Origin: Strigamia acuminata
Taxonomy: Eukaryota
Assembly: GCA_949358305.1 (NCBI GenBank)
Contig: OX442314.1
Location: 26,970,001-27,034,000 of the forward strand
Length of the DNA stretch: 64,000 nucleotides
Reading direction: 5' to 3'
In this document: one piece after another, positions 1,835 to 61,091 of the stretch
Layout of the letters: each line of letters opens with the position of its first letter
How positions within the stretch are numbered: position 1 is the stretch's first letter
Position numbers and translations under genes: made by a program
The notes under the pieces: generated by a model
What the model was told of the DNA's origin: nothing
The model's database searches: none
Seen by the model: only the letters and a program-made list of their open reading frames with translations

Positions 1835-2317
1835 TTGATGTGCTTCTACAAGCTCCAAATTGTTTAGCATACTTGAATCTAGCCACAACTGAGTGTAATT
1901 AAAAGTCTTGGTAGCACTCTTTATAATCCCTTTCACTGCATTCCCACAATCTATACGATCCTCTATGCCATTTTTTATTGGTCGCCAATATGGAGCCAAA
2001 GTTGCTGTATCTAATCCTGCCAACATGTAGCCAGGTATTTTTAGTTCTTTCGTTTCTTTATACTCAATCTCAACTTTAATTGGTTTAGACAAGTAGTGTT
2101 GCACTTTTTGATATGTCTGATAACAACAAATGGTGAGACAAAACGTTACCGCAACCAACCATACAATGCGAACTGCAACGGATTTCTGCTTGTCCAGTAA
2201 CTTATTCAATATCGGCAATGATGTCTTCTCGATTGAACTTGCAATTTCTTGTTTGCAAAGATGCCGAATGCGATGTTTTTTCAACTTCAGCATTCTTAAA
2301 TTTTCGATACGTCTCAT
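1835..2317 (-). CDS. DEG/ENaC (pickpocket/ASIC-like) subunit, paralog A1, first coding exon (N-terminus, TM1, start of ectodomain); no further exons identified in the window
   Basis: MRRIENL...TTSLPILNKLL-type N-terminus, TM1 RIVWLVAVTFCLTICCYQ, then HYLSKPIKVEIEY..ELKIPG. Ends at a CAA|gtaaga donor (phase 0). Close paralog of 29036-29503. Confidence 0.8.
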
Positions 2318-9177: not shown

Positions 9178-9900
9178 AATGGCGAAATTCAGCACACACA
9201 TATTTGCCATTGGTCACGTTTTTGCGTTTCCAATGGCGAAATTCAGCACACACATATTCGCCATTGGTCACGTTTTTGCGTTTCCAATGGCGAAATTCAG
9301 CACACACATATTCGCCATTGGTCACGTTTTTGCGTTTCCAATGGCGAAATTCAGCACACACATATTCGCCATTGGTCACGTTTTTGCGTTTCCAACGGCG
9401 AAATTCAGCACACACATATTTGCCATTGGTCACGTTTTTGCGTTTCCAATGGCGAAATTCAGCACACACATATTCGCCATTGGTCACGTTTTTGCGTTTC
9501 CAATGGCGAAATTCAGCACACACATATTCGCCATTGGTCACGTTTTTGCGTTTCCAATGGCGAAATTCAGCACACACATATTCGCCATTGGTCACGTTTT
9601 TGCGTTTCCAATGGCGAAATTCAGCACACACATATTCGCCATTGGTCACGTTTTTGCGTTTCCAATGGCGAATTTCAACATGCACATATTCGCCATTGGA
9701 AGCGTAAAAACGTTCCCAATGGCGAATTTTACATTAAAAACAAATCTCCCACATTCGCCCTTGGAAACAGAAAATATCTTTCCAATGGCGAATGTGGGAA
9801 ATAAAACATTCCTGCACTCAAAAAACGTTTCCAATGGCGAATTTAATAAAATTTGCCATTGGAAACGTCAAAATAGGTTTCTAAAGGCGAATTTCCAAAA
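9178..9900 (-). repeat. 54-bp tandem array, right arm of the foldback element
   Basis: Reverse complement of the left array, about 9 clean units then degenerate units toward the terminus. Confidence 0.95.
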
Positions 9901-19741: not shown

Positions 19742-22700
19742 TTAAGAAAAATAAAATCTTATAGTTTTATAGAAGTTTTGAAATAACTCTGGTATGACCA
19801 GCAATGACAGACCAAAAAATAAACCAAAGGTATTTCCGATTTCACAGAAAAGAGCTTCGAGGCTGTATTTACGAACTTCAACGTATTGCTCGATGATATT
19901 TGTAGCTGGCGTTGTCATAAGAAAATGTAAATCCGATGTTTCAGGTTCGTAAAAAAAAAGATTTGTTCGTAGAACAACTCTCTTGCAAGTAGGCTGACAG
20001 CCACATTCTCCGTTTGTGTTGATATTCAGTGATAAATTAATGAATGTTGCCAAGGCTTCTTTAGCTTCTGAAGCGGAACTGCACACTTTGGCGAATGTGT
20101 TATTGGTAATTGGTAATCTATAGTTTAAAATTCAAATATGTTTTCACATTTGTGGTCCGTTACGTGCGATGCAACTGCTAATAACTTACCGACACGAGAT
20201 TAATTTGAATAACTTTTCTTGAAAGCATTTGTCCTGGCATCTGATGTACTCTTCTTCGTTTTCAACACATGGGCGTGATTTCATATTTAGTGAAATTTTC
20301 TACAAGTATAGCGCCGAGAATTGGTTAAATTACTTTTCTGTTTTCTTTTCATAGTTTGGGGTTTTCGTGATGGCGAGTAAACAATACATAAATGCATAGG
20401 TTACGTTTAGTTTTAGAGCCCATCCCAGTAATATGAAAGATTCCAGTTGCAATAAAATCTTAATACAGGTTGAGACTTAGAAACCTGACTTATTCATTTT
20501 GTATTATATATTTTGTATTATATTTTGCAAATAATGATAGATAAACTTAAAAAAGCTAAACAAAAGGGCGGTTTTTTTTTGTCCTTGACTGTTTCAGCTT
20601 GTCAATATTCTGTGGTCTTGTGACAAGAGACTTTACTTGTAAAGTAACCCCCATTGCCAATAATCACATGTGCTTCAGGGTGGAGAAAATGGAGGCTAGG
20701 GGTAATGCCATTCCGTGAAATTAGAAGCCCCAGAAATATTTGATGCAAAATAGTCATTGACACGTTTGCTGTACGGGAAGGAAGTTTTCCCATCTTGTTG
20801 TGAGACCGCAGTGTCCATACCAATTTGCAAACATTTTCCATTTTCCACCTATAAAAATGGCATTCAAATATCTGTATAATGATTGTAGTTTCAAATAAAA
20901 ATTTTAATTATTTATGGGGTAATTACTTTTGCAAAATCGGCGGGTCTCTCTGGTTCACCCGGTATTAGAAGGGCTTTTAGATAAGTTATAAACTCACACA
21001 TTTTTAAAAACTCATGAAGTGCAATAGGATTTTTTTGTTTTCAAATCATGTGTTAAATTTTTCAGAAATAATTGTTGAAAAAGGGAAATTATTTATGTCA
21101 GAAATATAATATATTTTACTTCTAGAGATGATATTTGCAGTATCGACACGGTAGAGTAATCAATGTTCCGTCTACTTGTAAGAATTGATTGTACTTTAGT
21201 TCCAGGTGGTCGAAGATACATCTACAAAATTTAAAAAAAAAAATTGAAACTACAATAATAGAAAACAAGGCTATCACAATTTTTACAGCACATAGCAGTG
21301 GTTCTTAACTTTTTAAAAGGCCATGAAACATTTTTTGAGTATTTATATTGTTGCGTTCCTGACGGTTCCAATTGAATTTTCACAACAACACTAAATTTAT
21401 ATTTAGTCACTATGGGATTTTCTAAGTGTGAGAGATCCCGGCGTTCACCTGTGGAAGCAGTTGAATGCCGTTTATAGGTCTTCTATCGGGTGGGTTAGCC
21501 GTTAACTCGGTGTCTAGGGATTTGATCTCGAATAAAGACTAGTTTAGTTATTTTAAATCAAACAGTTAATCAATTTATTAAGCGTTAATTACAGGTTCAA
21601 TTGACGAGAATGATAATAAAATGGGTTCTATGAGGATAATGTCGTCGGCGTAGAAGGCGACGTGCTCGAAGCAGCGCGGGTCTCCTTCGGGCGGGAAAAA
21701 GCAGTGCAGAAATGGCGACTCGTCGCCGCGCAAATTCTGCGAAGAGGGAAAGGAAGCGTGAAGCCGAAAGACTTCACAAAGTGGTCCGGCTGTTAAGCCT
21801 GACAATACGGGAAATCTTAGGTTAAACCCTAGATTGCAACGGGAGATTTCCGTTGGCGACAAGTAGTCAAACGGCGGGTACCGCCGATCGTTAAAACCTG
21901 ACTGGAGATCCGCTACAATCTGAATCGGAATCGTCGTCAACAGGTCGAGGAGCGGCGACGATGGCTCTGCAATCCTCGGCGGCTGGCTGGCGTCGATCTT
22001 CAACGGCGCGGGCGCGTTGGTCTTCGGGCGGCGGCGGGAACGACGGTGGTTTGGGCCGTCGTGCGTCGTCTTCGCAGCTCGGAAAGTGATTCGTTTGAAC
22101 GTTGGTTCAAACAAATCGGGTTGAAACTTGGCAAACTCACGAGTCACGGACAAAACAGTGTTTTTGGTTAGTGAACAAAGCTGTGTCGGTGTGAACGGTA
22201 TGAGTGTGATGCAAAGAGTGAGTAATAATTCGAATTATTGCTCAAAATATGGCCGGAAAACGGCCAGTGCGCAGGCGTGGCGTGTGCCAAGGCACGCTTC
22301 AGCCCTAGCAACGGTGCAAAATTTGGGGATTGACTTAGCAACGCCCCAATCCAGGGCTCAAAATGCCAGGGCAGCCGTTACAGCTTCTGGGCCAATTGCC
22401 CAAAAGCGCAACAGGTGCACGGCAAAAAACACAATTCTAATGATTATGGTTAAAATATAAATAATATCTTAAAAACGTGGTAGAAAAACTCCACCACAAA
22501 TGAAGTGAATATTTGAGATCGCAACAATATCTAGACCGAACTTAGCAGCGCCGGCTCAAGATAGGAACAAGCGGTGCAATTGCGCAGGGCGCCATGACGA
22601 ATGGGACGCATTAATGCGCCCAAAATTTACCTACGAGCATTAAAAACAATCGCACTGGACACTGATTGACTTTTAGCTGCCCCTGGGACGAAGGCAGGTC

Positions 22701-25700
22701 TTGTAAAAAATCTGAACTAGAGGGTTGCCCAATCTCCAGGCAGATCTCTTTAGATTGGACACAATCTGCAGTTGCCGTGATTCGACTTACAAGTTAGTGG
22801 CAGAGAAATACAAATATGTCGTCGGGATAAATAATACACTTTATTAAACACTTACGAATATTCCAATACAATTAACAAGTGTATGATTGATGGTCTCGGA
22901 TCCTGCTGCGAATACGAGTCATTGCTAAACAATCGGCCCTCAATTTCATTCTATTTTTTTTTTACTTTGTTTGATTTGCAGTTGTTGCGACAGAATGATT
23001 TGTCATACACCACAGGTCGTGTAATGTTGTGACCGTATATACAGTATTAAAATGATATTAATTTAAACTACCTTTAACAACTTGTGTTGCTCGAATTCAC
23101 AGTTTAAAAAACGCATTTAGACAAACCAGACTAAAAGCTTTACAACCTGTGTATTTTTGTTAACGAAAAAAATAGTGCAGTTACCTTACCTGCCATAAGC
23201 CGTAAGAACATGAGGTAGTTTTACTAATAACGGAAATCAAGAATGTAGATGCACATCCAGCGTACTTTAGAGGCTCTAAAACAAAGTATAATCGGTCTTA
23301 TAGCTTTTATTTTACACTTTATTTTATAATTTTCTCAGTACTCATCCTAAACTCCAAACATGTTCCTGAGTGCATTTTGATGTCATTGGTAGTGTATGCT
23401 TCATCTATTGGATTAAACCCGTATTCCTGGAATCAAGTAAATGGCATTATTAATTTCGGTTCTACAAAGCCTGTATGAACCCAGAAATTCATAAGGAAAT
23501 TCTTGCTGTTGATCCCTTTTTGAGTCACCATTTATAGAAAAAGGTCATTTCCCTCTTTTCTCAGAACCCACTCCTATGAACAGGTGTGTGTCCTGAGGAA
23601 AATGAGTGATGTTGCCCTAGTTGCTATTGGCTTGGGCAGTCACATGACTTTAATGTATAAAAACATGGGGTCTTCCTTTTCAAGGCAGAACCTACAAAAA
23701 AACCATACCCAACACACAACAACCATCTCACCATCAGACCTACTTCCACTGCAAGTCAGGAGTGATTGAGGAAATAACTGTGTAAGTATAATTGTAATTT
23801 CGTATAGTTTAGAAGTTTACAAGAAGACTATTTCGGCCATAATCACATTACCTCAGTTTGTAATGAATTCGGCCTCCTGAACCTGAATAACCTCCTCCGC
23901 CTCTACGACATCACGGCGATCGCTGATGCTGTCCGAAACGAGAATCATCCGGCCCATAATCATCCGGCCCATAATTACATCCGGCCCATTCTAATTTTCC
24001 GGCCCACATACTACCAGTCAGACGTCGACACCCGCATGCCACGGCGCCATCGCTTTGAAGTTACCACACGGCAGTCCACATACAAGAGTAACACGTTCCC
24101 CTATCGGTGTACCTCCCTCTGGAACGACCTCCCTAGCGACCTAAGATACTCAATATTCGACTGCACAGCGTCCCGATGCCGTTATCATTGCTGACATTTA
24201 CACAAAAGAGTGGGCAACTACCTACTCAACCAACAAAAAATTGTCTAATTCTCAACTTGTATTTACTTCACCGGAGTGTTCTTGAAATAAATAAATAAAT
24301 AAATAAATAAAGCAAAGGAACAGTCATTGTAAGCACTCATTGAATTAGTAGCTGTTGGAACAATATCTTACAAATTAACAATGTAACTTAGTTGCTATGT
24401 AACAAATGTTGTTTATTAAAAATGAAGATGAGTGTATGAATATATAAACGCCTCCATTGCATGTTTGACTTTTCATGGGTTATGAGCCCAGACACAAATT
24501 TATTATGTGGAATATGGACTGTTTTTTGGCTGAATAAGTGCATATTGTGAGCAAAGGTTCAAAATAAGAAGTTTTCAATGAAAACTTTTCATACAGTTTG
24601 AAATGTTCCATGAGAATTAGGCCCAGAATTGATTGAGTGATAAGCCTCATCCTGAACTAATAAAGTGATAAGCCTCATCCTGAACTAATAAAGTGATAAG
24701 CCTCATCCTGAACTAATAAAGTGATAGGCCTCATCTCGATCTAATAAAGTGATAAGCCTCATCCTGAACTAATAAAGTGATAGCCTGTGCAACCTTAAGT
24801 CCTGGACTGATCAGTTGATTTTAAGTGCTATTTCTGAGGAAATGTTGACAGTTCAATTTGTAATTTCAGTTGAGTACGTGGTCGAGACAGCGCGAGATTC
24901 CAGCGGGCGGGAAATAGCAGTGGGCGAAATGAGCCTGATGGCCGCGCAAATCGTCCTTAAGCCTGGAGAACGCACGGAGGCTAGCGATGTCGTAATTGGA
25001 TCCGGTTGAGAAGCCTGACCAGAATGCAAAGAATCTGGGATTGAACCCTGAAACTCAGCAGGAAATTCCCCGCTGAAGGAAGGTATCGTATGGCGTAAAT
25101 CGTCGACAAATAAAACCTTCAAAGTCTACTGCAAGTCGTACTGTTACCAGCGGCGGCTTGCTCGCGTCGATCTTCAGCGGCTCTCGCTCGTCGGTCGTCG
25201 GCAGTTTGCTGGCGCGGGTCTTCGGCGGCTTTTTCGCGTCGGTCTTCGGGCAGCGGTGGTGACAATGGCGGTTCTTTACGTGGCCCTTCGTCTTCGTCGT
25301 CCGGGAAGGATTCACTTGATGCGGATTGGCATCAAGAAAATCGAATGAATCAATGCAAACTCACGGATCATCGGCCAAAACAGTGTTATTCAGGAATAAA
25401 GCTGTGACAGTAGTGATCAGTCTGAGGTGTAGGCAAAGAGTGTCTTTTTTCGAAAAACAATTAGGGATTTGGGCCAGAAAATCGGCCAAATACGCATGCG
25501 TGGCGTGCACCTGGCCTACGCTGTGCCTAGCATAGGTGCAAATTAGAAGCCCGCCTTAGCAACCCCCTAATCCGACACCCCGGTTGCCAGGCAACGGACA
25601 ACGGCCAAGAGCATTTGTCAAGTGCAAATAAAATTAATATTTTACTTGCACAACCAAATGAATTTAAGCAGTAATTTTAACACACATTTCGTTAAATTAT

Positions 25701-26203
25701 TTTAGAATTTTCATTTAATTTTATCCCGAATTTTCCAAAATAGATTAGACCATTTGGGGTCACAACAAGTTCCAATAACAAATTAATTGGCACACCGAAA
25801 GAAAAATACTCAGTGAGCTAAACAAATAAACGCGAATACCAACGTAATCAGTACTTACCTCAGTAACAAGTTTCATTACGGCAACATTCAATTTAGGCTT
25901 TTGGTAATTCCATACATTTTTAAGCGATGGTTTCTCACCACTGTCCATTAGATCAACGAAATGAATCTTGCATGGATCTATATCAATCTTGTTTGCATAT
26001 TCTTCTCTGAGCCTGGTCATTTTTAAGCCATCGTTACAGACAATTATATTAGGCATGTAAATGGTGTCGTTTTCTTTAACTTCAACTACGACTTTGATTG
26101 GTTCGCTGTAGTATAGCTGTATTTTCGTTGCAGTTAAATATACAGCAATTATGGTATTTGTCAATAACACAATTAAACGCACGAAACGACCAATCGATGC
26201 CAT
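19742..26203 (-). CDS. DEG/ENaC subunit unit B, intact 6-exon model (about 367 aa)
   Basis: Exons 26203-25859, 23426-23342, 23275-23190, 21221-21120, 20299-20190, 20117-19742, all GT-AG with consistent phase. Motifs YYSEPIKV, MPNIIVCN, SGTCLEF, Cys-rich thumb CGCQPTC, TM2 EIGNTFGLFFGLSLL. Confidence 0.88.
21450..22498. mobile_element. GC-rich dispersed repeat (LTR-like), related to 24786-25652
   Basis: tgtgg...ccaca ends; shares blocks such as gcgtcgatcttca.cggc, aaactcacg, gcaaagagtg and cttagcaac with the second copy; no TSD found. Confidence 0.5.
23900..24311 (+). mobile_element. 3' fragment of a CR1/L2-type LINE
   Basis: Translates NTFPYRCTSLWNDLPSDL (LWNxLP C-terminal motif) and ends in a (TAAA)n tail. 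Confidence 0.7.
24353..24490 (+). mobile_element. Copia-type 5' LTR plus primer-binding site remnant
   Basis: tgttggaa...ttttca (123 bp) followed directly by tgggttatgagccca, similar to the Copia GGTTATGGGCCC primer-binding site. Confidence 0.6.
24636..24785 (+). repeat. 29-bp tandem repeat, about 5 copies
   Basis: aaagtgataagcctcatcctgaactaata repeated. Confidence 0.9.
24786..25652. mobile_element. GC-rich dispersed repeat (LTR-like), related to 21450-22498
   Basis: tgtgcaa...ttgcaca ends and colinear similarity to the 21.5-kb copy; TSD not confirmed. Confidence 0.5.
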
Positions 26204-26209
26204 TTTATT

Positions 26210-29200
26210 TTAACTATTGTAATTTGTTTTAGACATGACTTTCTCATGTATCTTCACTATTTTACTTTTAAGGTTTGTGTTTGATTGACGAAGAGGCTGA
26301 GAATTGTATCTTCTAATTTTCTCGTACAGTCGCTTAATCAATGCTTGTCCTATTGCTACCAAGGATAACAATGATAATCCCAATGAAAATCCCAAATTTC
26401 CGCCGAAGTCTACTAACAATGCGATTGTGTCGTAGTCATGCACTTCAGTCATGACTATGAATGTTGATTCCGTTTGTTTCATTTTGATGACAATTTTATC
26501 TTTGTCAGGTGATCTGGTCATAGCTACTTGCATTAAGTATATTTGCTTTGTGCAAGGTCTTAAGCAATCACAATCTGTTGCTTTTGATGAAAATACATTT
26601 CTGTGTGTGTTCTTAAGAATTGTAGCAACAGTGGTATAATTTTTTATATCGTCGCAATTCCTAATTTCTTTGTTAAAATCCATATATGGTAGTCTGGAAT
26701 TTTAAAAAGGGTTTTGTTTGTATCGGCAATGCTTTATAGATTTCAAAGTTGTATTTCAATTCTAATGAACATATTATTGACTAACCGGCATTTAGAATTC
26801 TCTTTTTGAGCCAAACAGTTGTCGTAACACTTTCTGCTATTCTCTTCGTTTGAAATGCATCCAGTGTGTTTCGACGGTAAGAAGTTGTACTGAAAATTAA
26901 AATGTTAGTTACTACTGTAGGTGCATTCAAAAACTCTAAAACGTATGCAAAACTCGTTTCGTGTTTGAACGTGACGTCATTTCCATTGAATATCATGGGA
27001 ATGTTATGTTAATTCTCATACAATTTCTAAACACAATATCACTAAAGCATTGTCTACTGCCAGGGCAAAATAACCTTTCGTAAAATTTTCCAATTATTCT
27101 CAATCTTGTAATACCGTAGACTGTTTGCATCTGAAATTTTTTTCTATTTGCAAACTACATGTTAACGGAAATAATTTTGTACTTATCATCAATACGCAGT
27201 TTGGTCCAAACATGTAAACCATTTTCCCCTGTCAATAAACACTTGCGAACATGTGTAAATACCTGTCGCGAATGATAAGTCACCAACAACATATTGCCCA
27301 TTTCTGTTGGTAATGCGTATTCAAAAGGCATTAGAGGATTTACGGTCATTATCTATCAAAAACAAATTTAATTTAGTAACTCTACTTTTTGATGGTTATT
27401 AGCGAGATTGCAGAAGGGTGTTTGTGCATTATAAAAGTCAAGTTATATTATGTACTGTGACCGTTTGGTCATCCTAGTGGCCTACGTCACTCCACACACC
27501 GCCTGGTGGCTTAGCAGGGGAGGAGGTGAGCTGAGTGGTGTGGCGAGAGAGAGACGTTGCCGAGAGAGCCGAGGGTGAAGACGTGTCAGGATGAGCTGCC
27601 ACGGTCCCAACCACAGCAGAGACAACTGCTGACTCTGCTGCTCTCGCCACTCACCACTGTGACGCTCAGTAACAGGCTTCTCATTCTGTTGCAGCCTCCA
27701 TGAGCGCCAGAGTGTTCGTCCGACGTGACCGACCCCGTCACCCATGGGGCTCACGCCCTGTGTGTGACGGGTCGGTTGCCGGTGTAGCGTGCCTAACGGC
27801 ACCGCCACACAGTGAGATAGGTGACCCAACCCCAAGACAACGATTAAAGGCCAAAACCCAACAATCTGAGTCCCTGTCTCGTTCTTACGTGAGATATGCG
27901 TCCCTCCCATGTAGTAAATCCCCATACTATGCGGGTAAGACCATATCCAGTCGCAGTACACAATACGAATAGTCTAAAGGCAATCACAGTTTTTGTGTGT
28001 ACACAAATTAGCTATAAACTTGGATTGAATGTATTAATGACATTTTTGGATGTCCTGTGCTTTATAGGATAAGTGATATACAAGTAAATGAACTCCATTT
28101 CTTACACCTTTTTAAGTTTTACACTTTTTACCAGAAGGTGTAACTGCAGTTTTACACCATGTCAATTGTGAAGTTGTTTAGGCAATGACATTATAAATGC
28201 AATATTTAAATAAAACACTTTCAAGTCTGTCTTCTGACCGTTAGAAATGGTGTCATACAGCTTCCATTTTTCCGAAACGACCACGTAAAAGAGAATCCCT
28301 CAATCATGGACAAATCTAAAAATGTTAGTACGGTAATATATAATTGGAAACTTATTTAAAGTATAGAGGATGGAAAAAAGTTCTTTCTTCATTGAATTTT
28401 TGGCAAGTCTTTGTAAATTTTTTAAAATATTTAATACATTGGTATGAAATAGGACTTGCCATCATTGTTAATGAAGCTTTGCTGCAACACTTTTTATCAA
28501 GTTGTAACTTCTTAATCAGCAACTAAAGGACTTTTTTCTATTCTGTATAAGTTGAGCAGTTTATATTACTTGTTTTGAAGATTAAAGCAGCTCCCATTGC
28601 CATATTTTTTTCTCTGATTTCCATATGTGAATTAGTTGATAAAACGTTGCGATTGTTTCCAGTTATTTGAAAAACACGCTTCTTGTACTATAAAAAATGA
28701 AGTAGCTGACTTAAATGAAATAAAAGAACAGGGAAAATCAGAAAAAGAAAGAAAGCAACTGCTTAACTCTACTTTTAAACATGGAAATGTTACTACAATA
28801 ACAGCTGAATGTGTCAACGACAAAAAAAATAAAAAAGGGCATATTCTTTTCCTCATTGATCAGAATTGACCTCTGTTAATTGATGGGACCTGGAATGCCA
28901 GACGATCACAAACAAATCAGGCAAACAATTTCTTTGATATTATAATGAAATCAACGTGTTTGTATTTAAAGTCATTGTAATTACTTCCATAGATATGGAA
29001 GTAGAGTAATAAATAAAAATAAAAAACATACTTACCTGATATGCTTCGAAAAGCTCCAAATTGTTTATCATACTTGAATCTAGCCACAACTGAGTGTAAT
29101 TAATAGCTTTGGTAGCACTCTTTATAATCCCTTTCACTGCATTCCCACAAGAAAAAGGATTCCCTGATCGCCAGTAAGGAGCCAAAGCTGCTGTATCCAA

Positions 29201-29503
29201 TCCTACCATTATCAAACCAGGTATTTTTAATTCTCCTGTTTTTTTATACTCAATCTCGACTTTAATTGGTTTAGACAAGTAATGTTGCACTCTTCGGTAT
29301 GTCTGATAACAACAAATGGTCAAGCAAAACGTTACCGCAAACAACCACAAAGTGCGAACTGCAACGGATTTCTGCTTGTCCAGTAACTTATTCAATATCG
29401 GCAATGATGTCGTCTCGATTGAACTTGCAATTTCCTCTTTGCACAGATGCCGAATGCGTTGTTTTCTCAACTTCATCATTTTTAAATTTTCTATACGTCT
29501 CAT
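26210..29503 (-). CDS. DEG/ENaC subunit unit A2, 6-exon model with a damaged exon 2 (possible pseudogene allele)
   Basis: Exons 29503-29036, 28994-28871 (acceptor CAT, in-frame TGA at 28919-28917), 28315-28239, 27352-27263, 26889-26786, 26693-26210. Intron phases match unit B. Thumb CDCLRPC; TM2 DFGGNLGFSLGLSLL. Confidence 0.8.
27456..27955 (+). mobile_element. Solo LTR (500 bp) in an intron of DEG/ENaC A2
   Basis: TG...CA ends with 4-bp TSD GTAC; homologous to the LTR at 10199-13773. Confidence 0.8.
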
Positions 29504-39015: not shown

Positions 39016-42000
39016 TCAATCTAGGCCTTTCACCTTTAAAAATGCATCTTGAGTCGGTTGACGGCCCAGAAAATTCTTCAGCATATCTTGGGCATCCTAA
39101 AACCAAAAAAAAAAGTCAAAATATCTAGATAAAAATTGGTTAACAATTAATATATTGCTTACCATTGATCCACCTGGTTCCAAAATACTTCTCCGATAAT
39201 CCCTACCAACGGATGGATTCATGATTCCCTCGATTTTAAAACGCGAGAGAAACATATCGCAACAGTAAACCTCGCTCCACTACAAAACAAACGAAGAAAA
39301 CGAATATTTTTGTGCAAATTCATGACCACTGAATCCTTTGTAAACATCAATTTGGTACGAAACTAACACGAAGTTGAATACAGTCGAAACTCTTTATAAC
39401 GAATCGCGATATAACGAATTATCGATATAACGAATTGTTATGAATGATTTGGTTGGCCAGCCATAGAACACCATGTTAAATATTTTCGTTATAACGAATT
39501 TCAATATAACGAATTATTCGTTATAACAAACAAGTTTTCATGTACACTGTAATACCAACAATCCCTCGTTATAACGAATTTTCAAAACTGATCACATGAC
39601 TCACAACATCCTATGCCCATGTTAGGGACACATTTAGAAAAAATAAAAAAATTTCTGTTTTAAAATGGCTGCCAAATGAAAAGAAATTTTGATTTAGGAC
39701 AAGTTGAACATTTTTAATGCCATTAACAATGGCAAGAAGCTATCAATTGTAGCAGTTGAGTTTAATTTGTCCCGTTTTACAATTTCAACAGTTTTTAAGA
39801 ATCGGGATAAAATTAACATGATTTTATGAATAAATAATGTTGTGTATGATGAAATTTTATTTTTTTCAGCTAATTCGTTTTAACGAATTCTCGTTATAAC
39901 GAATCGATTTGTCCGGTCCCTTGCGATTCGTTATAAAGAGTTTCGACTGTACACTTACCAAATATCCATAATATTGAGCGTCGTATGAACCGGCTAGATG
40001 CGTGAAAGATGCCGGCATATTGGTTCTTTCGGAGGGAGAAATACCGATAATTTCTTCAAACAGTCGATTGTACGTTTCCCGCGTGTTGGCCTGAGAAATT
40101 AAAAAAATAATCAATTATTTGTGAAATAATTATCTCGATTTGATTTACTTCTGCCGTCGTGTGTATCGTTTGATCCAACTTGGCATAAACGATTTGCCGC
40201 AGATTAGTAATTCCGACGTTGGCTTTCTGCGATTCGATCAACTTCTGGATCATTTCGTCGGGGATTGGTTCGTTGGTCTTGTAATGCGCCGACATTCGTT
40301 TGAGCGGTTCCATTTCCCAAACCCAATTCTCCAGCATTTGCGACGGCGCTTCGACAAAGTCCCTCTCCACTTTGGTCCCGCTAAAAATGCAGTACTTGGC
40401 GCGAGCACAAATGTGGTGCATCAAGTGGCCGAATTCGTGAAAAAAGGTTTCCACCTAAATGTAAAGAATTGAGCCAATGCAAATAAATGAAAATCGTCCG
40501 TGTGTAAGGAATTTAATTGATACTACCTCGTTATGATCTAGTAGGGCCGGTTTATCTTGTGTTGGTTTTGTAAAATTGGCCAAAATGACCGGCACCGCCA
40601 ATATTCTTTGGTTATCGGGACCGACACACCCGTTCTGAAAGAAAATCAATTGGTTACATTTTATGGCATAAATTAAGTGATTAAGTGGTGTAACTAATCC
40701 AGTTGGCATCCGCAATTAACTAGTTAAATCTCTATAAAATTTGTGAGCAATTTCTATACAATTTGTGAGCAATTTCTATACAATTTGTGAGCAATTTCTA
40801 TAAAATTTGTGAGCAATTTCTATAAAATTTGTGAGCAATTTCTATAAAATTTGTGAGCAATTTCTATACAATTTGTGAGCAATTTCTATAAAATTTGTGA
40901 GCAATTTCTATACAATTTGTGAGCAATTTCTATAAAATTTGTGAGCAATTTCTATAAAATTTGTGAGCAATTTCTATAAAATTTGTGAGCAATTTCTATA
41001 AAATTTGTGAGCAATTTCTATAAAATTTGTGAGCAATTTCTATAAAATTTGTGAGCAATTTCTATAAAATTTGTGAGCAATTTCTATAAAATTTGTGAGC
41101 AATTTCTATAAAATTTGTGAGCAATTTCTATAATATTTTTGCCATCAGATTGAGACAATTCTTTTGATTTTACAAACATTTCGAGTTGCAAGCATGATTG
41201 CTACACCACTGAACACATTACCTGTAACTTATACACGCAAGCGTGCCCGTATTTTCCTTCTCGAGGAAATAAATCGAAAAAGAAATATCCAAGCAACTCC
41301 TTTGTCTTCTCGTCAACCGCACGAAACTGAATATAAAAATTTAATTAATTTGGTTAGTCAGTAAATACAAAAAGTACAGAGTATTTATAATTATTTACCA
41401 TTTGCACATCGGGATGCCAAACATCCGCATCTTTGACTTCCTCGAATCTCACTCCTAACAAATCCTGATAAATCTTGAGCAGCCCAGCACTAACGACGCT
41501 AAGTGGAAAATATTCCTTCAACTTATTCTCATCCACAGCGTACAACTTCTCTTCGATCATCGTCATGTAATAACGCAAATCCCAGTGATTCAATTTCCCA
41601 TCAAATCGCAAACCAAGCGCGTTACACTACAAAAATTAATAAATAAATAAATAAATAAAACGAAACAAAACAAAACGTTAAAAACACCTCTTCCTCTTTA
41701 AATTGCATCATCTGTTCCTTTTCCTTGCTCCAAACCGGCTGAAGTCGGTCGTTTAAATCGTCTAAAAACTTCGAAATTGTTTCTGGCGATTTGGCCATCA
41801 GCATTTCGGTGATAAATGAAGAATGGTTCGGATAACCGAGCAAATCCGCTTGTTTCTGACGGAGCGTGATTAATTCCTCTAAAATCGGAGTGTTCTCATT
41901 AATGCATCTAGATTGAAAAAAGTAAAAACTTAAAACATAAAATTATGTTTTCCAATTTCTTTGTTCACCGAGAATTAAACGCTTTGTCCATTTCTTGTCT

Positions 42001-43124
42001 CGTGTACGAATTCTGGCATTTCCTCATGATGGGGATGACGTGAGGGTATTTTAGCGTTACTTTGCGCTTCCCGTTTTCCAGTTTCTCCAAGCTTTGAATG
42101 AAGTCGTCGGGCAATCCTTGCAGTTGTTTTTCGGTGAATTCCAACACCGTGTTTTCCTCGTTCATGTTCTGCTGAAAGTTGATGCTCAGTTCGCTCATTT
42201 TATTCTTGATCGCTTTGATTTTCACTTGGGTTTCGTACGCGAGATGCAGACCATTTCTTTTGCCCAATTTTATTTGTCTTTCTACGTAACGTTTGGCTTC
42301 CGGGTCCAAAGTTTCCATTTTGAATTTGTTTTTCTCTTGAAAATACTCCAGTTTGTCGAAAATATCTTTTCTCATGCTGAAATCATGGAGTATAATCAGG
42401 GATCGGTGCCAGGTGTATAGAAATATATTTTATTTTGCACGAAAATGCATTTTTTTAATGTAAAAATTGCATTTTTGTGTGCCAATTTATATTTTTGCGT
42501 GCAAAAATGCACTTTTATACGAAAATCAGTTCTTTATAGGTGCAAATAAAACACTTTTAAACCAAAATGTGTAGTTTATAAGCGCAAGAATGCACTTTTT
42601 CAATGCCAAAGACGACTTTAACACGCAAAAAAATTATTTCGGAGCATATTTCTAATTTCAACCTCATTTCAACACTAAATTCATCCAATTTCTGTGCCGC
42701 TGCAGTGCTCGCCTTTCTGATCTCTTTCAGCGTCGAAACTTGTTGTGGGAATACAAGCGGAGCCTGGTGAATCGAAAAATCACATTCGACGTCTGCTAAT
42801 TTCTACAAAAGAAATAAGGTCGAATAAATTATACAAAATTGATTTAAGATTTATATTTCTGGCTATTACCTTAATGACGTTATCAAACGTGACATCTTCA
42901 AATTTCAAATCCGCTATTTCATCATAAACGAGTCGACATTTTTCGATCAATTCTTTGGTTTTTTTGCATATATCCTCTTCAGTAAGCGCATCGAAATTCC
43001 AAGAATAATTAATTCCGCTTATTTTCGACATTTCTGACGATTTTCTTTGTGATAAATAACGGAATTGATTTGATCGAAGGAGGAAGGTTTGACTAAGTTT
43101 CTGAATACACTTAAATATTGTCAT
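39016..43124 (-). CDS. THOP1: Thimet oligopeptidase/neurolysin (peptidase M3A), multi-exon
   Basis: FFHEFGHLMH zinc motif, VERDFVEAPSQMLENW, HLAGSYDAQYYGYLWSE, FLGRQP C-terminus; TGA at 39016-39018. Confidence 0.9.
39381..39949 (+). mobile_element. Tigger/pogo-type non-autonomous element in a THOP1 intron
   Basis: TA TSD; TIR cagtcgaaactctttataacgaatcgc; decayed CENP-B-type HTH (DKLNIFNAINNGKKLSIVAVEFNLSRFTISTVFKNRDKI). Confidence 0.88.
40727..41130 (+). repeat. 22-bp minisatellite, about 18 copies, in a THOP1 intron
   Basis: aatttctata(a/c)aatttgtgagc repeated. Confidence 0.95.
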
Positions 43125-43159: not shown

Positions 43160-43460
43160 GTTCTTTCTATAAAATCTTTGTATAAACTAGGATCCAGGTA
43201 AAATTAACAAAAGATACCAAAGGCAAATACAACTCTGATTTTTATCTTTATTTTATCAATGTGACGTCAAAAATTTACTGATTTGTTGTTATATCAGATA
43301 TTTGTTGACTTTAGGTGACTACCGGTATATTGCCATCTAGCGTTAAACATTACAAATAAATTAGAAAGATGGCGACTTTATTTATTACTCGCTAAGCTGG
43401 AAACTTTTCGAGTAATAAAGAAGCCGCTCTCTTTATAATCTAGCTTTATAAACAATAAAG

Positions 43461-44915
43461 TCGTCGAAAATCTCAAAAATAAGCGGAATTAGTTATATTT
43501 GGAATTTAGGTACGCTTACTAAAGTAGATATAAGCAGAAACACTAACGAATTGATCGAAAAATGTCGACTCATTTACTATGGAGTGGCGAATTTGAAATA
43601 CGAAGATGTCACGTTTGAAAATGTATTTAAGGTAATATTGAGAAATATAGGTGTAAAATGAATTTTGTATAATTTATTAGAATTTTTTCCCTTTGTAGAA
43701 GTTAGCAGATGTCGAGTATGATTTTATGGTTCATCTGGCTCCGCTTGAATTAGCAGCACAAGTTTCGATGAGAAACGGGATCAAAAATGCGTGCAATACA
43801 TCGGCACAGAAAATGGATGAATTTAATTTTGAAATGAGGTTAAAATTACAAATACGTCCCAAAAATGCATTTGTTTCGTGTAAAGTTTTTCTGTGTGGAA
43901 AAGATGCATTTTTGCGTACAGAAAGTGCATATTTTCGTTCAAAAAGTGCGTTTTTGTGACGTAAAAATATAGATTAGCATACACAAATGCAATTTTCACA
44001 TAAAAAAATGCATTTTTGGGCAAAATATAGTGTATTTCTAACTCCTGGTACCGATCCCTCATTATATTCCATATGATTTCAGTACGAGAAAAGATATTTT
44101 TGAAAAACTGGAATATTTTCAAGAGAAAAATCAAATTTAAAATGGCCACTTTGGACCCGGAAGCAAAACGTTACGTGGAAAGAAAAATAAAATTGGGCAG
44201 AAGAAGTGGTTTGCATCTCGCGGACGTAATCCGAGTGGAAATCAAAGAGATCAAGAAGAAGTAAATGAGGGAACTTGGCAAATCTTACATACAGAAGTTG
44301 AATGAGGAAAGCACGGTTTTGGAATTTACCAAAAATAAGTGCAAGAATTGCCCGAAGACTTCATTCAAATCAAAGCTTGGAGGAACCGAAACATGGGAAA
44401 CTCAAAGTGACGCTAAAGTATCCGTACCTGATGCATTTCGACAAGATTATGAAAAAATGCCAAAACTCGGAACACGAGACGAGAAATGGACGAAGTTTTT
44501 AATTCTCGGTAAACAAAAGCTTTGAAAAGAATAATTTTATTTTTTAATTTTTTTTTTTTAATTTTTTAAATTTAGATGCATTGAAAAGAACACTAATACG
44601 ATTTTAGAGGAATTAATCACGCTTCGGGTCAGAAACAAGCAGATTTGTTCGCTTATCATCGACATGCTGATGGCCAAATCGCCAGAAAACATTTCAAAAT
44701 TTTTAGGAATCTGCTTGTAGTATGCGATAGTTGAATGTAAAACGTAGCAAAAAATTGAGGAACAATATTATGTAAGCAATTATGTAAGCAATCCACAAGA
44801 AATATTTTCTCTGTATTTAATAACCACGATTACACAAATCACATTCTTTAGGCAAACCTTCTCCGTACTTACCTTCAAGAATAATTCTATTCTACTCCAC
44901 ACATTGATTTTCTAC
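43461..44915 (+). pseudogene. Inverted, internally deleted duplicate of the thimet oligopeptidase gene
   Basis: Intron-containing copy of the first exons (ATLDPEAKRYVERKIKLGRRSGLHLA) with frameshifts, a stop and a lost second ATG. 44789-44915 is the rc of about 38740-38870. Confidence 0.88.
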
Positions 44916-52600: not shown

Positions 52601-53282
52601 TCCTTCCGAATGATATTGTTTATTGTAAATATTGTAACTGCACATACCTATACAACACCCAAACTTTCTTTTGATTGACTTGAAACTTTTGTTGGTCAGG
52701 ATCGATGAGAATCTCTCTACATCCCTTACAATTGGTAAACTCTAAAAAAGGGTGCCACAACCTTGTTGCTACTTCTTTTGGTAAAATGTGCAAAGCTTCA
52801 TTTGGTATAACCAGTTGGTCATCAAACCAGTGGGTTTTAATCGAGATGTCAACACTAAACTCCTAGCAAAAGGAATTTTTTTGGTATTAGATACCGTAAG
52901 GAAGATACCGTAAGATACCGCAAGTTGCAATTTTACCATGTCTTTTGCTGAAAGACTTTGCACTCCATGTGGAATAAGGGTCCAGTTTAGTTTCACTGCA
53001 GCTGAAATAAAAAGTTGTGTTGGTACTTAATTCATTTCAAGATTGAATGCGTCCAATGTCTTATGTCTTACCACAGTTGTATGATCGATTTGCTGAATAA
53101 TTGTTTGGAACAAGGTTTTTTATGAATTGATCACTAAAAATGTACACATTGCAATATTAAAGATAGAATCCAATGATTAAAAAAAGAGTTTACCTATTTA
53201 TAGAATAGACATGTCTTAGATGAAATATTAGTATGTCTGATAGAAATAAGAAAGCAAAGCAATGTGCTTTTAAGTTTTGCAT
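49631..53282 (-). CDS. Cys-loop ligand-gated anion channel subunit (GluCl/GlyR/HisCl-like, divergent), 8-exon model
   Basis: Exons approximately 53282-53194, 53133-53072, 53001-52937, 52863-52649, 51160-51078, 51005-50855, 50211-49843, 49786-49631 with consistent phase. Motifs HWFDDQL, LWHPFLEFTN, Cys-loop CVFDLTRYPFDVQIC, loop C C..NFTC, M1-M3 PSLLIVILSWISFWL..AARVALG..KALDIW, and M4. Confidence 0.88.
50506..50638. mobile_element. Short hAT (Charlie-like) MITE
   Basis: caggggtcggcaacc ends with 8-bp TSD GTATAGGG; a deletion relative of 54592-55000. Confidence 0.85.
51209..52312. mobile_element. TA-flanked MITE containing two nested TA-flanked elements
   Basis: Outer TIR ctcaagttaactctaagattatcctttct..cattggccgagcc. 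Inner elements taccgtata...tatacggta (about 51302-51722) and taccgtatttt...aaaatacggta (about 51772-52059). Confidence 0.75.
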
Positions 53283-53797
53283 TGCTGTGTGAGTTACAAG
53301 TATATCTAAATTAAGCAATTGATGACTACCTAAGTACAGTTAAGTAATTAATTTTTTTATTAGCAATAAAAAGACAATAAGCGTGAATCATGATTTCATG
53401 ATGCACGCAATTGAGTAATTACTGTAGTTTTCAGTATAGAAATTAAATTAACAATGGTGTAAGTTTAAACATAAATACTTTTCTCAGAATTAAAATTATA
53501 TTAAAAATGTAATGTTTCTGTTTAAAAGGTGAATAATTGAGTTAATAAACACGTGGCGACATTTCAAAAGAGAAATTATTTCTTTTCTCAGAAATTAAGT
53601 TTTGAAGCAATTTTATAAAGGAAGTGTCTATTGACAGGGGGAAATACTTTGGTTCAAGGTGCCTGATGATAGATAATTCGGGGAACATTAGAAGGGTTTG
53701 GGTCCCAGAATTTTTTTCCGGTCTGTGCCATAGTGGTCAAACGTCTAAACTAAATTGGTTCCTTTGGGAACCGCTAGTTTCCACAAAGTCTTTCATT

Positions 53798-56700
53798 TTA
53801 GCGCTTTGTTGCAGAAATTTTTTGATGAACGGGCTGTACGACACTTCCATATTGACATTCAGTTGTTATTATCTGTTCGGAAGTAAATGAAAATTGTTGG
53901 AATAGAGTGGTAAAATAAAGAAATAGTTGCATTCGGGCCAGTGCTTCTCCAATACATTGCCTTTTACCTGTATGAAAAAAAAAACATTGCTCAGTAATAA
54001 TACAACTGAGATTTTAAGTTATATTTGTTTACCGATGGAAAAAGGAATCAACTCCTCCACGTGTTTAACTTTGTTTTCCTCACTAAGAAAGCGTTCTGGT
54101 TTGAAATGTTCGGGTTCTGGAAACAACTTTGGATTGTTATGAACTGACCATACATTGGCAACTATGGTTGTCTTCTTTGGAACAAAATAACCAGCTAGAG
54201 TTGCATCTTCACTTGAACTAGAAATTAATATAGAATTCATTAGCAACATCTACTAAAAATTCAGAGGGGACAGTAATAACTGTGCCGCAACATAGAACTA
54301 CTGTACGTGGGGTGGGCGTTATTCATTATGTTTTTATTGTCATTTCAATTTCGACTTGTAATTAACTGTCACCAATTGGGACTGGCAAGAGCATAGGCAG
54401 GGAGTGTTGTTATTTTGAGTCACCTTGATCCGATATGCCTCGGGGCCAAGATAATTCTCGATAATTTCACCGCTAGGTGGAGTTACGTAGGCTACCTTCG
54501 ACCTGTGTCCACTGTCTGATTCACCCATGCCGGGCAAGCGTCGAGGCAGAGCGTAGAATAAAAGTTTTCACCATTCTACATCAACCTAACTCAGGGGTCG
54601 GCAACCTGCGGCTCTTTCGATCTCAAGATATGGCTCTCTCAAGTTGTGAGCCAGATTTAACCAAACTTTCAAAAGGCATGCAAGGCCAATGCTCCCATTG
54701 ATGTAACTATTGTAACTATCTATTATTCAATAATTATAGTTATATTATTTGATTACTAATTTTATTATTCTAGCTAAAACACTTAATATATTTTGTGCGA
54801 AACATTTTTATGTTTTTATATGAATAAATATTATTTCATATGTAAAGCTATTTATTTTAGATCAAAAATTAAATTTATATACCTAATCCTAATCAAATAC
54901 CATAATATTGAAACAAAAATGTTAGTGGCTCTTTAACAACTGGGAAATTTTGTAAATTGTAACTTTTGGCTCTTCCGTCTCAAAAGGTTGCCGACCCCTG
55001 ACCTAACTCGTTCTTCTCCGTCGCGGTTAGCCAACAGCGGGTTATTTCAGCACCATCTCTTTATGAGAATTGTATTCCATCGCGGCATTGTAAATTTCCA
55101 ACAATTCGAATTGGCGCTGGTCACCATTACTGTTTAGAAGATTGTCCTGTTAGACGTTGTTTTACGTCAAAAATATTTTTTATCAGAGACGACGAGAGGG
55201 GCCCGTGTCTGACTATGTTGAATAATTAATATTGTTCAAGTCCAACATGGTTTAACTAGCCATTTGTTTAGTTATATTGTCTGTATTATTGCAACAACAG
55301 GTGGTGTCTAAATAACGTTTGTTTTGAACAACTCAGATTCAGAAAAAATTTTGAATTTAAAGGATGGTGCCAGTGTTTCTATGATGTTTAATCTACTATA
55401 CTTACGTGTGAGGAACAAGCAAAGGTACGAGCGAGACCATCCTGCTTATTTCCAGTAAAGTCGCTTCTGTATATGGCATTAACTTTTGGTCTGACATTGA
55501 TGGTTGTCTATCTTTTCCAATCACTTCGTCAATTTCCATTTGCACTTTTGCTTGTACGTGAGGGTATTTTACCATATACAAAAGTAGGAATTCCAAAGTC
55601 GTGCTTGTAGTGTCGCTTCCAGCAATAAACAATTCGCTCAATATTTTTGCCAGTTTCTTTTCTAGGAATGATAATAGAAAAATAATAAAACAGTTGGTTG
55701 CTTACAGTTAGTTTCAATTTTAAAAAATTCTGAAATTCTCATATTCTCAAAAACTTCTCAAATTTGGATGAAAATTTAACTAAAAATTCCCAAATTTGGT
55801 GGTAATTCAACTAAAAATTCTCAAATTTTATTTAAAATTTATAAAATAATTATACTCTTTCCACACTCAAGAGGAGCCCTGGAATCTTGGCTCCCATTGG
55901 TCGAGCCATTTCACTTGTGTAGTGATACATAAAAGACCCAAAACACCAGAATGGCAGAGTTTACAAATGACGTCATACCATTTGAAAACGAGGCTAAGGG
56001 GTATAAACAAACCCAAACAGCATAGAATTCACGATAAAATGTATATAAAATCTGATTATTACTGTGACAAATTTTATTTTAAAGATGTATTACACATTTT
56101 TAAACATTTTGTGTGTTTATTCACATAGTTTTACTTCTTTTTAATCAATTTCCATATTGTTTCAATGGTTATATTTTTTCGACCCGTGTTGAATTGTTTT
56201 TTCATGTTTTGAAAGATCTTTCACTCAATTTCACCCGTTTTGAATAATGTTCCTCAAATTATCATTCGTTTCATTTGTTTTTTGTACATTTTAAATGTTT
56301 TGGTGGTGACTGGTGATCCATAATACGTGCGACATTCGTAAATGCGACAACACCAGCCTCGGTTGGACATGTAACCGTTATTCATATGCGCGACATCGTG
56401 TGTATGAATCTCGCAGGCAGCTGACGATTCGGATTAACCAAAAATAGCCTAAATTAATCGGCAGCTGTCAGTTGTCAGCCGTCGACAGTCGCGGCCGTCA
56501 GTCGACAGTCGTCAGTCAACCGTCACCTGTCGAATGTCGCGGCCGTCAGCCGTCGGCTTTCGACCGTCAGCCAGCTGTCGAATGTCGCGAATGTCGACCG
56601 TTGCGGCTGACGATTGACAGTCGACGGCTGCGACATTCGACGGCTGACTGTCGACTGTTGTGTACGTCGGACGACGACTGCCGATTTCAAATGGGTGCAA

Positions 56701-59700: not shown

Positions 59701-61091
59701 AATGTTGAAACATAATATTTTTTCTTTACTAGGTGCATTCAAAAAGTCTAAAACATATGCAAAACTCGTTTCGCGTTTGAACGTGACGTCATTCCCATTG
59801 CATAACATGGGAATGACGTCACGTGCAAACACGAAACGAGTTTTGCATACGTTTTAGACTTTTTGAATGCACCTACGGAAAATGATAATAGAGAGTTTGC
59901 TAGATGTATTTTCCTCTTATTTTGCTCCACGATACATTACCGTACGTTAGTGCCATATCGTTAAGCAAAAAGCTTTTAGTGTATCGTTTTCAATACTAAA
60001 ATAAAATATAGCACAGCCAATCAGAATTGAGAACACTATATTGTTAGCTCCGCCCATTGCAAATGGCGATTATTTTGTTGCAGAAACAAACGTATTCGAA
60101 TCACGATGGATTGTGCACTTTGACGATCGAAGAGACGTTTTCCGAGGTCGAATTTTAAGCAGAAACTTGAGTCAGGATTCGCCAAAGTAGGATCTGCTTT
60201 TAAATTTGAATGCGGATCACCGGACACCCATTGCCTAGATAAAAACGAATTTGACAGCCATAGTGTAGTGATAAGGGAAAAATGCAGCCCGCAAAAACAT
60301 AATTTATCATTTTTCCCTTACACTATTTTTATACCGTATAGTCTTTAACTGTAAGGGAAAAATGCATACCGCAAACTTTCTATTGGCTGCATTTGAAAGC
60401 TGGAATTTCAAGAGTAATGTACTCTGTGCAGCCCGGACATAGGAAGGGTCCCAGAAAGTTGTCCGGATGAACAGGCAGTTCGGATGGGAAGGTGAGGGAA
60501 TTTAACATTGCTCTCGCAGCTGTCCGGACGAGCTCTGGTTGATCCGTACAGAGTGCACTGTAATCACGTTTGATCAATTTTCTTGGTTATCCTTTTAGTT
60601 CTTTTCCTTCTAAAGGATGTTATCAAAAATTATATTTAACAACTGCAGCTGAAAATGATTTTTGTATCTATCTCTAGGTGCATTCTGTCTACAAGTGTAA
60701 AAAGCAAGCTCAGCAGAATTTATAATAATTTAGATTCACAAGTCCAAAGTTTGGCCGTGTATGAGTTTTTGTGCTTTTATCATTGGTATCTTGTGACTGC
60801 TGATAATAGCCTATATCAAGATGAAATTTAGAATCTCGCCTGGGTGCTGGTATTAAATTAAATTAAATTTAGTTTAGAAGGTTATACTTACGTGAGAATT
60901 TCTCCGTATTTCTCTTTAAGTTTGGTTAGCACAAGATGAGGTTTTTTACCAAGAAATGGCAAATATCCCAAGATTGGTATTCCTTTAGGTCCAGGTGGCA
61001 AATTTTTTGGAGATTTCATGTATTTTAAAGTTAGCCATAAGACAATTGCGGCGATAGCAAATACGAACAGTGGAAAATCATTAGGAATCAT
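53798..61091 (-). CDS. Cytochrome P450, CYP2 clan, multi-exon
   Basis: N-terminal anchor plus [22 protein letters not shown]-helix AGSDTT, EISR, PERF, heme motif PFSIGKRQCIG. Confidence 0.92.
54592..55000. mobile_element. hAT (Charlie-like) MITE in a CYP intron
   Basis: caggggtcggcaacct TIR with 8-bp TSD ACCTAACT. Confidence 0.9.
55855..56826. mobile_element. TA-flanked MITE with a GTCGAC-rich subterminal tract
   Basis: TIR of about 130 bp starting ctctttccacactcaagaggagccctgg; TA on both sides. Confidence 0.88.
58096..58557. mobile_element. Palindromic MITE, P-element-superfamily-like
   Basis: CATAG...CTATG termini, TIRs of about 155 bp, 8-bp TSD ATGTAGTG. Confidence 0.85.
58639..59399. 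mobile_element. Tc1/mariner-type MITE
   Basis: TA TSD; long TIRs starting cagggtgttctaaaagtattgttcc. Confidence 0.88.
59732..59873. mobile_element. Small palindromic TA-flanked MITE (partial copy at about 26918-27003)
   Basis: ggtgcattcaaaaagtctaaaac...gttttagactttttgaatgcacc. Confidence 0.8.

What the first reader, a model, noticed from the sequence alone, without database searches (positions are those of the whole stretch)
19742..29503. Two complete DEG/ENaC subunits in one reading frame and one shared exon: candidate natural concatenated channel
Seen: the minus strand at 26218-26201 reads AAT AGT TAA AAT AAA ATG. The last exon of unit A2 (thumb, TM2) and the first exon of unit B (TM1) form one 835-nt block (26693-25859) in a single frame with one stop. 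From its ATG, unit B has only about 8 residues before TM1 and lacks the usual cytoplasmic N-terminus. The tail before the stop (KTNYNS*NKM) lines up by eye with the pre-TM1 segment of the A2 N-terminus (TTSLPILNKL), and the stop falls on the Leu (TTA to TAA is one change). Established: DEG/ENaC subunits have two TMs and assemble as trimers. Inference: this is, or was, an approximately 820-aa, four-TM A-B tandem protein that fixes subunit stoichiometry, now split by a nonsense allele or read through.
Basis: partly seen in the sequence, partly recalled or inferred. Interest (0 to 1): 0.9.

Follow-up and report, generated by a model that had tools for sequence, protein, structure and literature searches.

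The report
Natural two-in-one DEG/ENaC channel gene
This gene, likely from a centipede or a related myriapod, holds two different sodium-channel (DEG/ENaC) subunits in one reading frame, broken by a stop codon in this copy but open in another individual and in many related genes, so these animals likely make pre-joined channel subunits, a design I could not find described for this channel family.

Summary
Confirmed and extended. An 11-exon model (29503-19742, minus strand; 816 codons, four hydrophobic segments) holds two Pfam-ASC units, A and B, 23% identical, sharing one 835-nt exon; the only internal stop is TAA at 26212-26210. The stop looks like a private nonsense allele. A contig from another sample reads TTA (Leu) there, and close paralogues read TCA (the TCA is reconstructed). 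No contig shown has TAA. 26 of 92 database hits align across the junction in one open chain, 23 of them Strigamia maritima gene models. Their TM2-to-TM1 spacing is 89-117 residues; the window's is 104. A and B units separate on a tree with weak support, and B units mostly replace a pore glycine. Unrelated three-unit chains occur as uninterrupted ORFs, likely in crustaceans. AlphaFold packs a double and a triple with pTM about 0.7. The closest solved relatives are the centipede antennal channels BRTNaC1 and PDPNaC1, both single-subunit homotrimers. No RNA evidence was available. Ten paper searches found no description. The scan's earlier notes hold only a fused Naegleria gene model, which I did not test.

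The parts
29036..29503 (-). Exon 1: unit A N-terminus and TM1 (no HG motif)
   Evidence: Pfam ASC 3-60, E 3.8e-7; model
28570..28687 (-). Exon 2 (unit A extracellular), inferred
   Evidence: AG/GT ends and phase fit
28239..28315 (-). Exon 3 (unit A), inferred
27263..27352 (-). Exon 4 (unit A), inferred
26786..26889 (-). Exon 5 (unit A, Cys-rich thumb start)
   Evidence: tblastn of P0020 E 3e-13
25859..26693 (-). Exon 6, shared: A thumb and TM2, cytoplasmic linker, B TM1 and start of B extracellular domain, in one frame
   Evidence: colinear with P0003, 38% over 269 columns
26210..26212 (-). TAA, the only internal stop (codon 447); TTA in run X1, TCA in paralogous copies
26201..26203 (-). In-frame ATG 6 nt after the stop (possible restart for unit B); AATAAA lies at 26209-26204
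   Evidence: sequence
23342..23426 (-). Exon 7 (unit B), inferred
23190..23275 (-). Exon 8 (unit B), inferred
21120..21221 (-). Exon 9 (unit B), inferred
20190..20299 (-). Exon 10 (unit B, thumb start)
   Evidence: tblastn of P0053
19742..20117 (-). Exon 11: unit B thumb, TM2 (EIGN instead of DxGG) and final stop
   Evidence: Pfam ASC 331-453
1835..2317 (-). Exon 1 of paralogue A1; the rest of that gene is not seen in the window
   Evidence: 85% nt identity to A2 exon 1; Pfam ASC; dN/dS 0.47 over 156 codons

Best explanation
The locus is one 11-exon gene model whose single reading frame holds two different DEG/ENaC units (A then B), and it likely encodes a four-helix tandem subunit of about 816 residues, with the TAA in this copy likely a recent nonsense allele in the linker. 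Shown: the shared exon, two ASC domains, open junctions in another sample and in paralogues, and a family of open tandems in Strigamia maritima. Inferred: an old duplication of a six-exon gene put B's first exon in frame inside A's last exon, and the pair then multiplied as a unit. Inferred: after A's TM2 a cytoplasmic linker of about 45-60 residues leads into B's TM1, so A and B would take two neighbouring places of the trimeric channel, and B could drift at pore positions (Gly436-equivalent to Asn/Ser) that a homotrimer keeps. The third place would come from a separate single subunit or from one half of another tandem (untested). By kinship with BRTNaC1 and PDPNaC1 it is likely a sensory cation channel (acid, heat or chemical); the ligand is unknown. 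The window's allele would make a complete A monomer (446 aa) or be degraded.
For: (1) X1 record 1 spans 26150-26275 in one contig, depth 29 (single-copy contigs of X1 lie at about 26-37), with 2 differences: TAA to TTA and a silent change. (2) Paralogue contigs in X1, X2 and X3 read TCA. This is reconstructed from two overlapping loose ends; mismatch counts fit exactly for 3 of 4 contigs (the fourth is off by one), and two 30-nt unitig overlaps agree. (3) 26 of 92 phmmer hits have one stretch across the junction: 23 S. maritima models, 1 Halocaridina model, 1 unnamed ENA ORF of 241 aa on a 1154-nt contig, 1 not looked up. (4) DxGG-to-post-TM1-Pro spacing is 89-117 (median 96) in 24 of 24 aligned homologues, and 104 in the window. 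(5) On a 38-row tree, linker-side and terminal units need 1 change; 0 of 500 shuffles do as well; window A pairs with P0003 at 98/97. (6) The second Gly of DxGG is kept in 23 of 23 myriapod-type linker-side units printed, but is Asn/Ser in 7 of 8 terminal units of the A-B type, window included; PMC12714832 names Asp433 and Gly436 as the ASIC1a gates. (7) AlphaFold model of the double P0010: pLDDT 73, pTM 0.69, linker disordered; Foldseek and HMM top hits are BRTNaC1 and PDPNaC1. (8) Engineered ASIC concatemers conduct (PMC10329638 passages).
Against: No RNA run was listed, so no transcript or protein across the junction is shown. Most homologues are automatic gene models from one species, and an invented intron in their linkers cannot be excluded one by one. 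The A/B split has weak support (55/91). The pre-stop segment does not score significantly as an N-terminal motif. Table 3 does not list the three differences that make the paralogue codon TCA; I first misread those contigs as keeping TAA and corrected this by bookkeeping. The TAA is not confirmed by any contig, so an assembly error is not excluded. Two linked subunits do not divide evenly into a trimer.
Confidence: 0.78

Rival explanations
1. The tandem gene is intact in this animal too and the TAA is a consensus error of the assembly (a shift between a T run and an A run).
For: No contig shown in three runs has TAA. The change sits at a T-run/A-run border. Every other exon of the model is intact.
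Against: The eight longest X2 contigs listed match the window with 0-1 differences each over 500-1150 nt, so the assembly is accurate nearby. The window-type path is simply absent from the X2/X3 output, as bulge removal or the tool's filter would cause (inference). X1 differs from the window at several sites per kb, so alleles are common.
Confidence: 0.09
2. The stop is functional: this copy is a fission allele that makes a free A subunit, and B by restart at the ATG 6 nt on or the full tandem by leaky read-through, so supplying the third subunit that a tandem needs.
For: The stop falls in the linker and leaves A complete. An in-frame ATG with A at -3 and G at +4, and an AATAAA, follow at once. 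B's exons carry no damage.
Against: The stop is not shared by the other sample or the paralogues. The ATG and AATAAA are also in the open X1 allele, so they did not arise with the stop. TAA followed by A is not a known leaky context (recalled). A recent null allele would also leave B undamaged.
Confidence: 0.08
3. A and B are separate, tightly packed genes; the open frame between them is not used, and the database tandems are annotation fusions.
For: Tandem DEG/ENaC arrays are common. In P0041 and in P0006/P0007/P0014/P0021 the units cluster within the array, as fused neighbours would. No RNA support was available here.
Against: In the window the junction lies inside one exon, so no predicted intron is needed. 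Spacing is narrow across 24 homologues mostly 17-27% identical to P0010. An ENA ORF on a 1154-nt contig crosses the junction. Position-specific grouping and pore substitutions fit inheritance as a pair.
Confidence: 0.05

Closest known systems
[quoted passage not shown]
   Same: Best solved matches by profile (E 1.6e-46 and 1.9e-34), by the window block itself (E 1.1e-10 for PDPNaC1) and by fold. Compact extracellular domain; PDPNaC1 also lacks the HG motif.
   Different: They are single 421-431-residue, two-helix subunits (PDPNaC1 is stated to be a homotrimer; the BRTNaC1 entries hold three chains each). Here two units only 23% identical lie in one chain.
Vertebrate ASIC/ENaC and insect pickpocket channels (Pfam PF00858)
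   Same: ASC domain, Cys-rich thumb, TM2 signature with GxS.
   Different: One subunit per gene, with heteromers assembled from separate chains. PMC8438182 lists 46 insect PPKs (8%) with 3-5 predicted helices but, in the passages seen, does not read them as tandems.
Engineered ASIC concatemers (PMC10329638)
   Same: Head-to-tail linked DEG/ENaC subunits that form working channels of fixed make-up.
   Different: Laboratory constructs, three subunits; this is natural and two-unit.
Two-pore channels and four-domain Nav/Cav channels (recalled, no call)
   Same: Natural concatenation of channel subunits by internal duplication, allowing an asymmetric pore.
   Different: Unrelated fold with four-fold symmetry, which two or four repeats fill evenly; two repeats do not fill a trimer.
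Uncharacterised three-unit proteins: Halocaridina rubra KAK7028032.1 and KAK7013173.1, Logan clusters P0078 and P0098-P0102, Polypedilum KAG5672929.1
   Same: Several ASC units in one chain with short linkers.
   Different: Three units, which would fill a whole channel; on the trees they lie apart from the centipede tandems, which suggests separate origins. They are database entries; I found no paper on them.

Membership tests
DEG/ENaC superfamily (per unit) | Pfam ASC domain above the curated cut-off | tested here: met
   Four exon pieces at 24.1-46.5 bits, cut-off 23.6
DEG/ENaC superfamily (per unit) | Two membrane helices around a large Cys-rich extracellular domain | tested here: met
   Hydropathy peaks 47-65, 387-405, 456-474, 782-800; the fold of homologue P0010 matches BRTNaC1 and ASIC
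DEG/ENaC superfamily (per unit) | TM2 signature DxGG..G...GxS | tested here: met
   Full in unit A; unit B has E for D and N for the second G but keeps both later glycines and GxS
ASIC/ENaC-type canonical subunit | Pre-TM1 His-Gly re-entrant motif | tested here: not met
   Absent in A and before B; also absent in PDPNaC1, so not required for the superfamily
ASIC/ENaC-type canonical subunit | One two-helix subunit per polypeptide | tested here: not met
   Two units in one frame in the X1 allele, the paralogues and 26 database hits; this is the new feature
DEG/ENaC superfamily (per unit) | Trimeric assembly and cation conduction | not testable with these tools
   Only predicted models; no physiology
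Programmed stop-codon read-through gene | Stop codon conserved across alleles and relatives with conserved coding beyond it | tested here: not met
   Sense codons in the other sample, the paralogues and the homologues
Dicistronic or operon-like gene pair | One transcript, two separately translated ORFs | not testable with these tools
   No RNA holder listed

The most novel reading that the evidence does not exclude
Arthropods have more than once turned the DEG/ENaC trimer into pre-linked chains: centipedes carry a large family of A-B tandem subunits with an asymmetric pore, and crustaceans carry single-chain three-unit channels (1245-1307 aa), the DEG/ENaC counterpart of two-pore and four-domain voltage-gated channels. 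This window catches one tandem in the act of splitting again by a single base.
Probability: 0.68. Interest if true: 0.9.

Novelty: new variant of a known kind. Interest (0 to 1): 0.78.

Why it matters
DEG/ENaC channels are treated as trimers of separate two-helix subunits, and subunit order has been studied with engineered concatemers. Natural two- and three-unit chains would show that evolution fixes subunit make-up by fusion in this family too. They would give ready-made channels for asking what each position contributes to gating and selectivity, and they pose a concrete puzzle: how a dimer fills a trimer. They would also mean that a sizeable myriapod sensory-channel family has been miscounted or mis-split in annotations. 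An open and a stop allele of the same gene give a natural fused-versus-split comparison.

Tried and rejected
No whole genome is held, so the A1 junction and other copies could not be read in the assembly. No RNA holder was listed; this says nothing on expression. Runs X6 and X4 gave no cover of the junction. My first reading, that a paralogue class keeps TAA, was rejected after mismatch bookkeeping. The pre-stop segment as a relic N-terminal motif was not significant. ORF-like pieces at 20848-20637 were considered as B exons and dropped, because exon 9 joins exon 10 in frame and by homology. A suspected frameshift in A exon 1 was a misreading. The word-index search with alignment A1 returned only the query. 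The complex prediction of P0010 tandem plus a third A-type domain gave no answer (score 0.01, alignment not used) and is evidence neither way. No further ASC unit was found in the window by tblastn with the hits. Literature: 10 searches listed no paper on natural multi-unit DEG/ENaC chains; several were broad and noisy. Term look-ups in PMC5203786, PMC8438182, PMC7067487, PMC4244043, PMC10507113, PMC9822975, PMC12714832 and PMC9974506 showed none. Vizueta et al. 2020 was not held, and no supplements were read.

Full report
Observation. The exon 26693-25859 has one frame with a single TAA at 26212-26210. Pfam ASC matches the start and end of unit A and the start and end of unit B, each above the cut-off. 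An 11-exon model with GT-AG introns gives 2451 nt, 816 codons, one internal stop (codon 447) and four hydropathy peaks; A and B are 23% identical over 371 columns and share intron phases 0,1,0,0,2. The inner exons are inferred without RNA. The host is likely a centipede or related myriapod: a P450 exon in the window has its best of 2 hits in Strigamia maritima at 71%, and so do the channel units. No genome is held.

Is the stop general? Three runs hold the exon, none on record as RNA; their depth pattern is that of genomic DNA. At the junction, X1 record 1 spans the whole 126-nt stretch at depth 29 with two differences: one turns TAA into TTA (Leu), the other is silent. Other contigs, at about two to three times single-copy depth, are paralogous copies. 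The tool's difference table omits some of their changes, and I first read them as keeping TAA. But two loose ends overlap in register over six bases, the per-contig mismatch counts fit exactly for 3 of 4 contigs (9, 7, 7; the fourth 10 against 11), and two 30-nt unitig overlaps link these contigs to the loose ends; the codon is then TCA and the frame is open. So no contig shown has TAA. The window's own path is missing from X2 and X3, so the TAA is neither confirmed nor refuted; X1 record 1 is the only contig that bridges the codon by 31 or more bases on both sides.

Relatives. A search of 1.84 billion representatives with the junction block (X at the stop) gave 92 hits; in 26 the best stretch runs from A's TM2 region to beyond B's TM1. 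23 of the 26 are S. maritima gene models, one is from Halocaridina rubra, one is an unnamed ENA ORF of 241 aa on a 1154-nt contig, and one was not looked up. The closest, P0003, aligns across the junction at 38% over 269 columns with only small gaps. In the 24 homologues I aligned (the 26 without P0007 and P0017), the distance from the TM2 Asp to the Pro after the next TM1 is 89-117 residues, median 96; the window has 104. Full doubles such as P0010 (791 aa) and P0011 (805 aa) have four hydropathy peaks like the window. On a 38-row tree of thumb-TM2 segments (31 proteins of myriapod type; crustacean and insect rows and the P0006/7/14/21 array left out), 19 linker-side and 7 terminal units need one change, with weak support (55/91) but 0 of 500 shuffles as low; PDPNaC1 (P0034) lies on the A side. 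The wider trees agree in outline and are poorly resolved. The second glycine of DxGG, a gate position in ASIC1a according to PMC12714832 (passages), is kept in 23 of 23 myriapod-type linker-side units printed and replaced by Asn or Ser in 7 of 8 terminal A-B-type units.

Three-unit chains. The same search found proteins with three ASC units: two H. rubra models (1244 and 1289 aa), one Polypedilum model (1460 aa) and P0078. A search with P0078 gave 6 clusters of 1245-1307 aa, 45-78% identical apart from the query itself, all from Logan contigs of 4.2-5.3 kb. These are uninterrupted ORFs; their uniform size suggests transcripts and their grouping with H. rubra suggests crustaceans (both inferred). 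Their units group by position. In the Polypedilum model and the P0006/7/14/21 set the units group within the array, so these could be recent arrays or annotation fusions.

Structure. AlphaFold2 on P0010 with 25 rows gave pLDDT 73 and pTM 0.69, with a low-confidence linker. On residues 26-1225 of the triple P0098 with 31 rows it gave pLDDT 74 and pTM 0.70. Such pTM values suggest a defined packing between units; I could not inspect coordinates, so trimer-like geometry is inferred. Foldseek ranks BRTNaC1 and PDPNaC1 first for the double and ASIC1 for the triple; sequence searches of the PDB agree. The window's own full-length protein was not folded.

How it likely works. Shown: one frame, two units, open alleles and homologues. 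Inferred: the gene makes a four-helix A-B chain; the short cytoplasmic linker puts A and B at neighbouring places of a trimer; the pairing freed B's pore residues to diverge; the third place is filled by a single-unit relative or by half of another tandem. A sensory role (acid, heat, chemicals) rests on kinship with BRTNaC1 and PDPNaC1 (passages of PMC9974506 and PMC12714832). Engineered ASIC concatemers conduct (passages of PMC10329638), so linkage is compatible with function. The window's TAA is most simply a recent nonsense allele in a multi-copy family. It would yield a complete A subunit or a degraded mRNA. An assembly error or a functional fission allele remain possible.

Novelty. Ten searches of the held library and term look-ups in nine papers (passages only, no supplements) found no description of natural multi-unit DEG/ENaC chains. 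Subscription papers and Vizueta et al. 2020 were not seen, so this is absence in what I could search. The proteins sit in databases as uncharacterised entries. Earlier scan notes had nothing on this locus or sequence; one mentions a fused Naegleria gene model.

Verdict. Interest 0.78.

Noticed in passing
P0078, P0098-P0102 (Logan); P0016, P0017 (Halocaridina rubra): Three DEG/ENaC units in one 1245-1307-aa ORF with position-specific units: candidate single-chain channels; worth a study of their own.
   Followed up: partly
P0006, P0007, P0014, P0021 (S. maritima); P0041 (Polypedilum vanderplanki): Models with two or three or more near-identical units in frame; recent head-to-tail arrays or annotation fusions.
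   Followed up: partly
window:14104-17403 (+): Open 1100-codon Ty1/copia pol frame (protease-type, integrase, RVT_2 domains) between the two channel genes.
   Followed up: partly
window:2546-3179 and 9178-9699: Two arrays of the same 54-bp repeat in opposite orientation, about 11 and 10 copies, upstream of paralogue A1.
   Followed up: no
window:21973-22352 and 25195-25573: Two 69%-identical copies of a high-copy repeat inside introns of unit B.
   Followed up: no
window:39900-43124 (-), with 41762-43056 mirrored at 43445-44706: Peptidase M3 (thimet oligopeptidase-like) exons, with a 76%-identical inverted duplicate of part of the region.
   Followed up: no
window:46029-47489 (-) and 52623-61193 (-): Exons of a Sugar_tr (SLC22-like, label recalled) transporter and of a cytochrome P450.
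   Followed up: partly
window:40727-41138: 22-bp tandem repeat, 18.7 copies, 97% matches.
   Followed up: no
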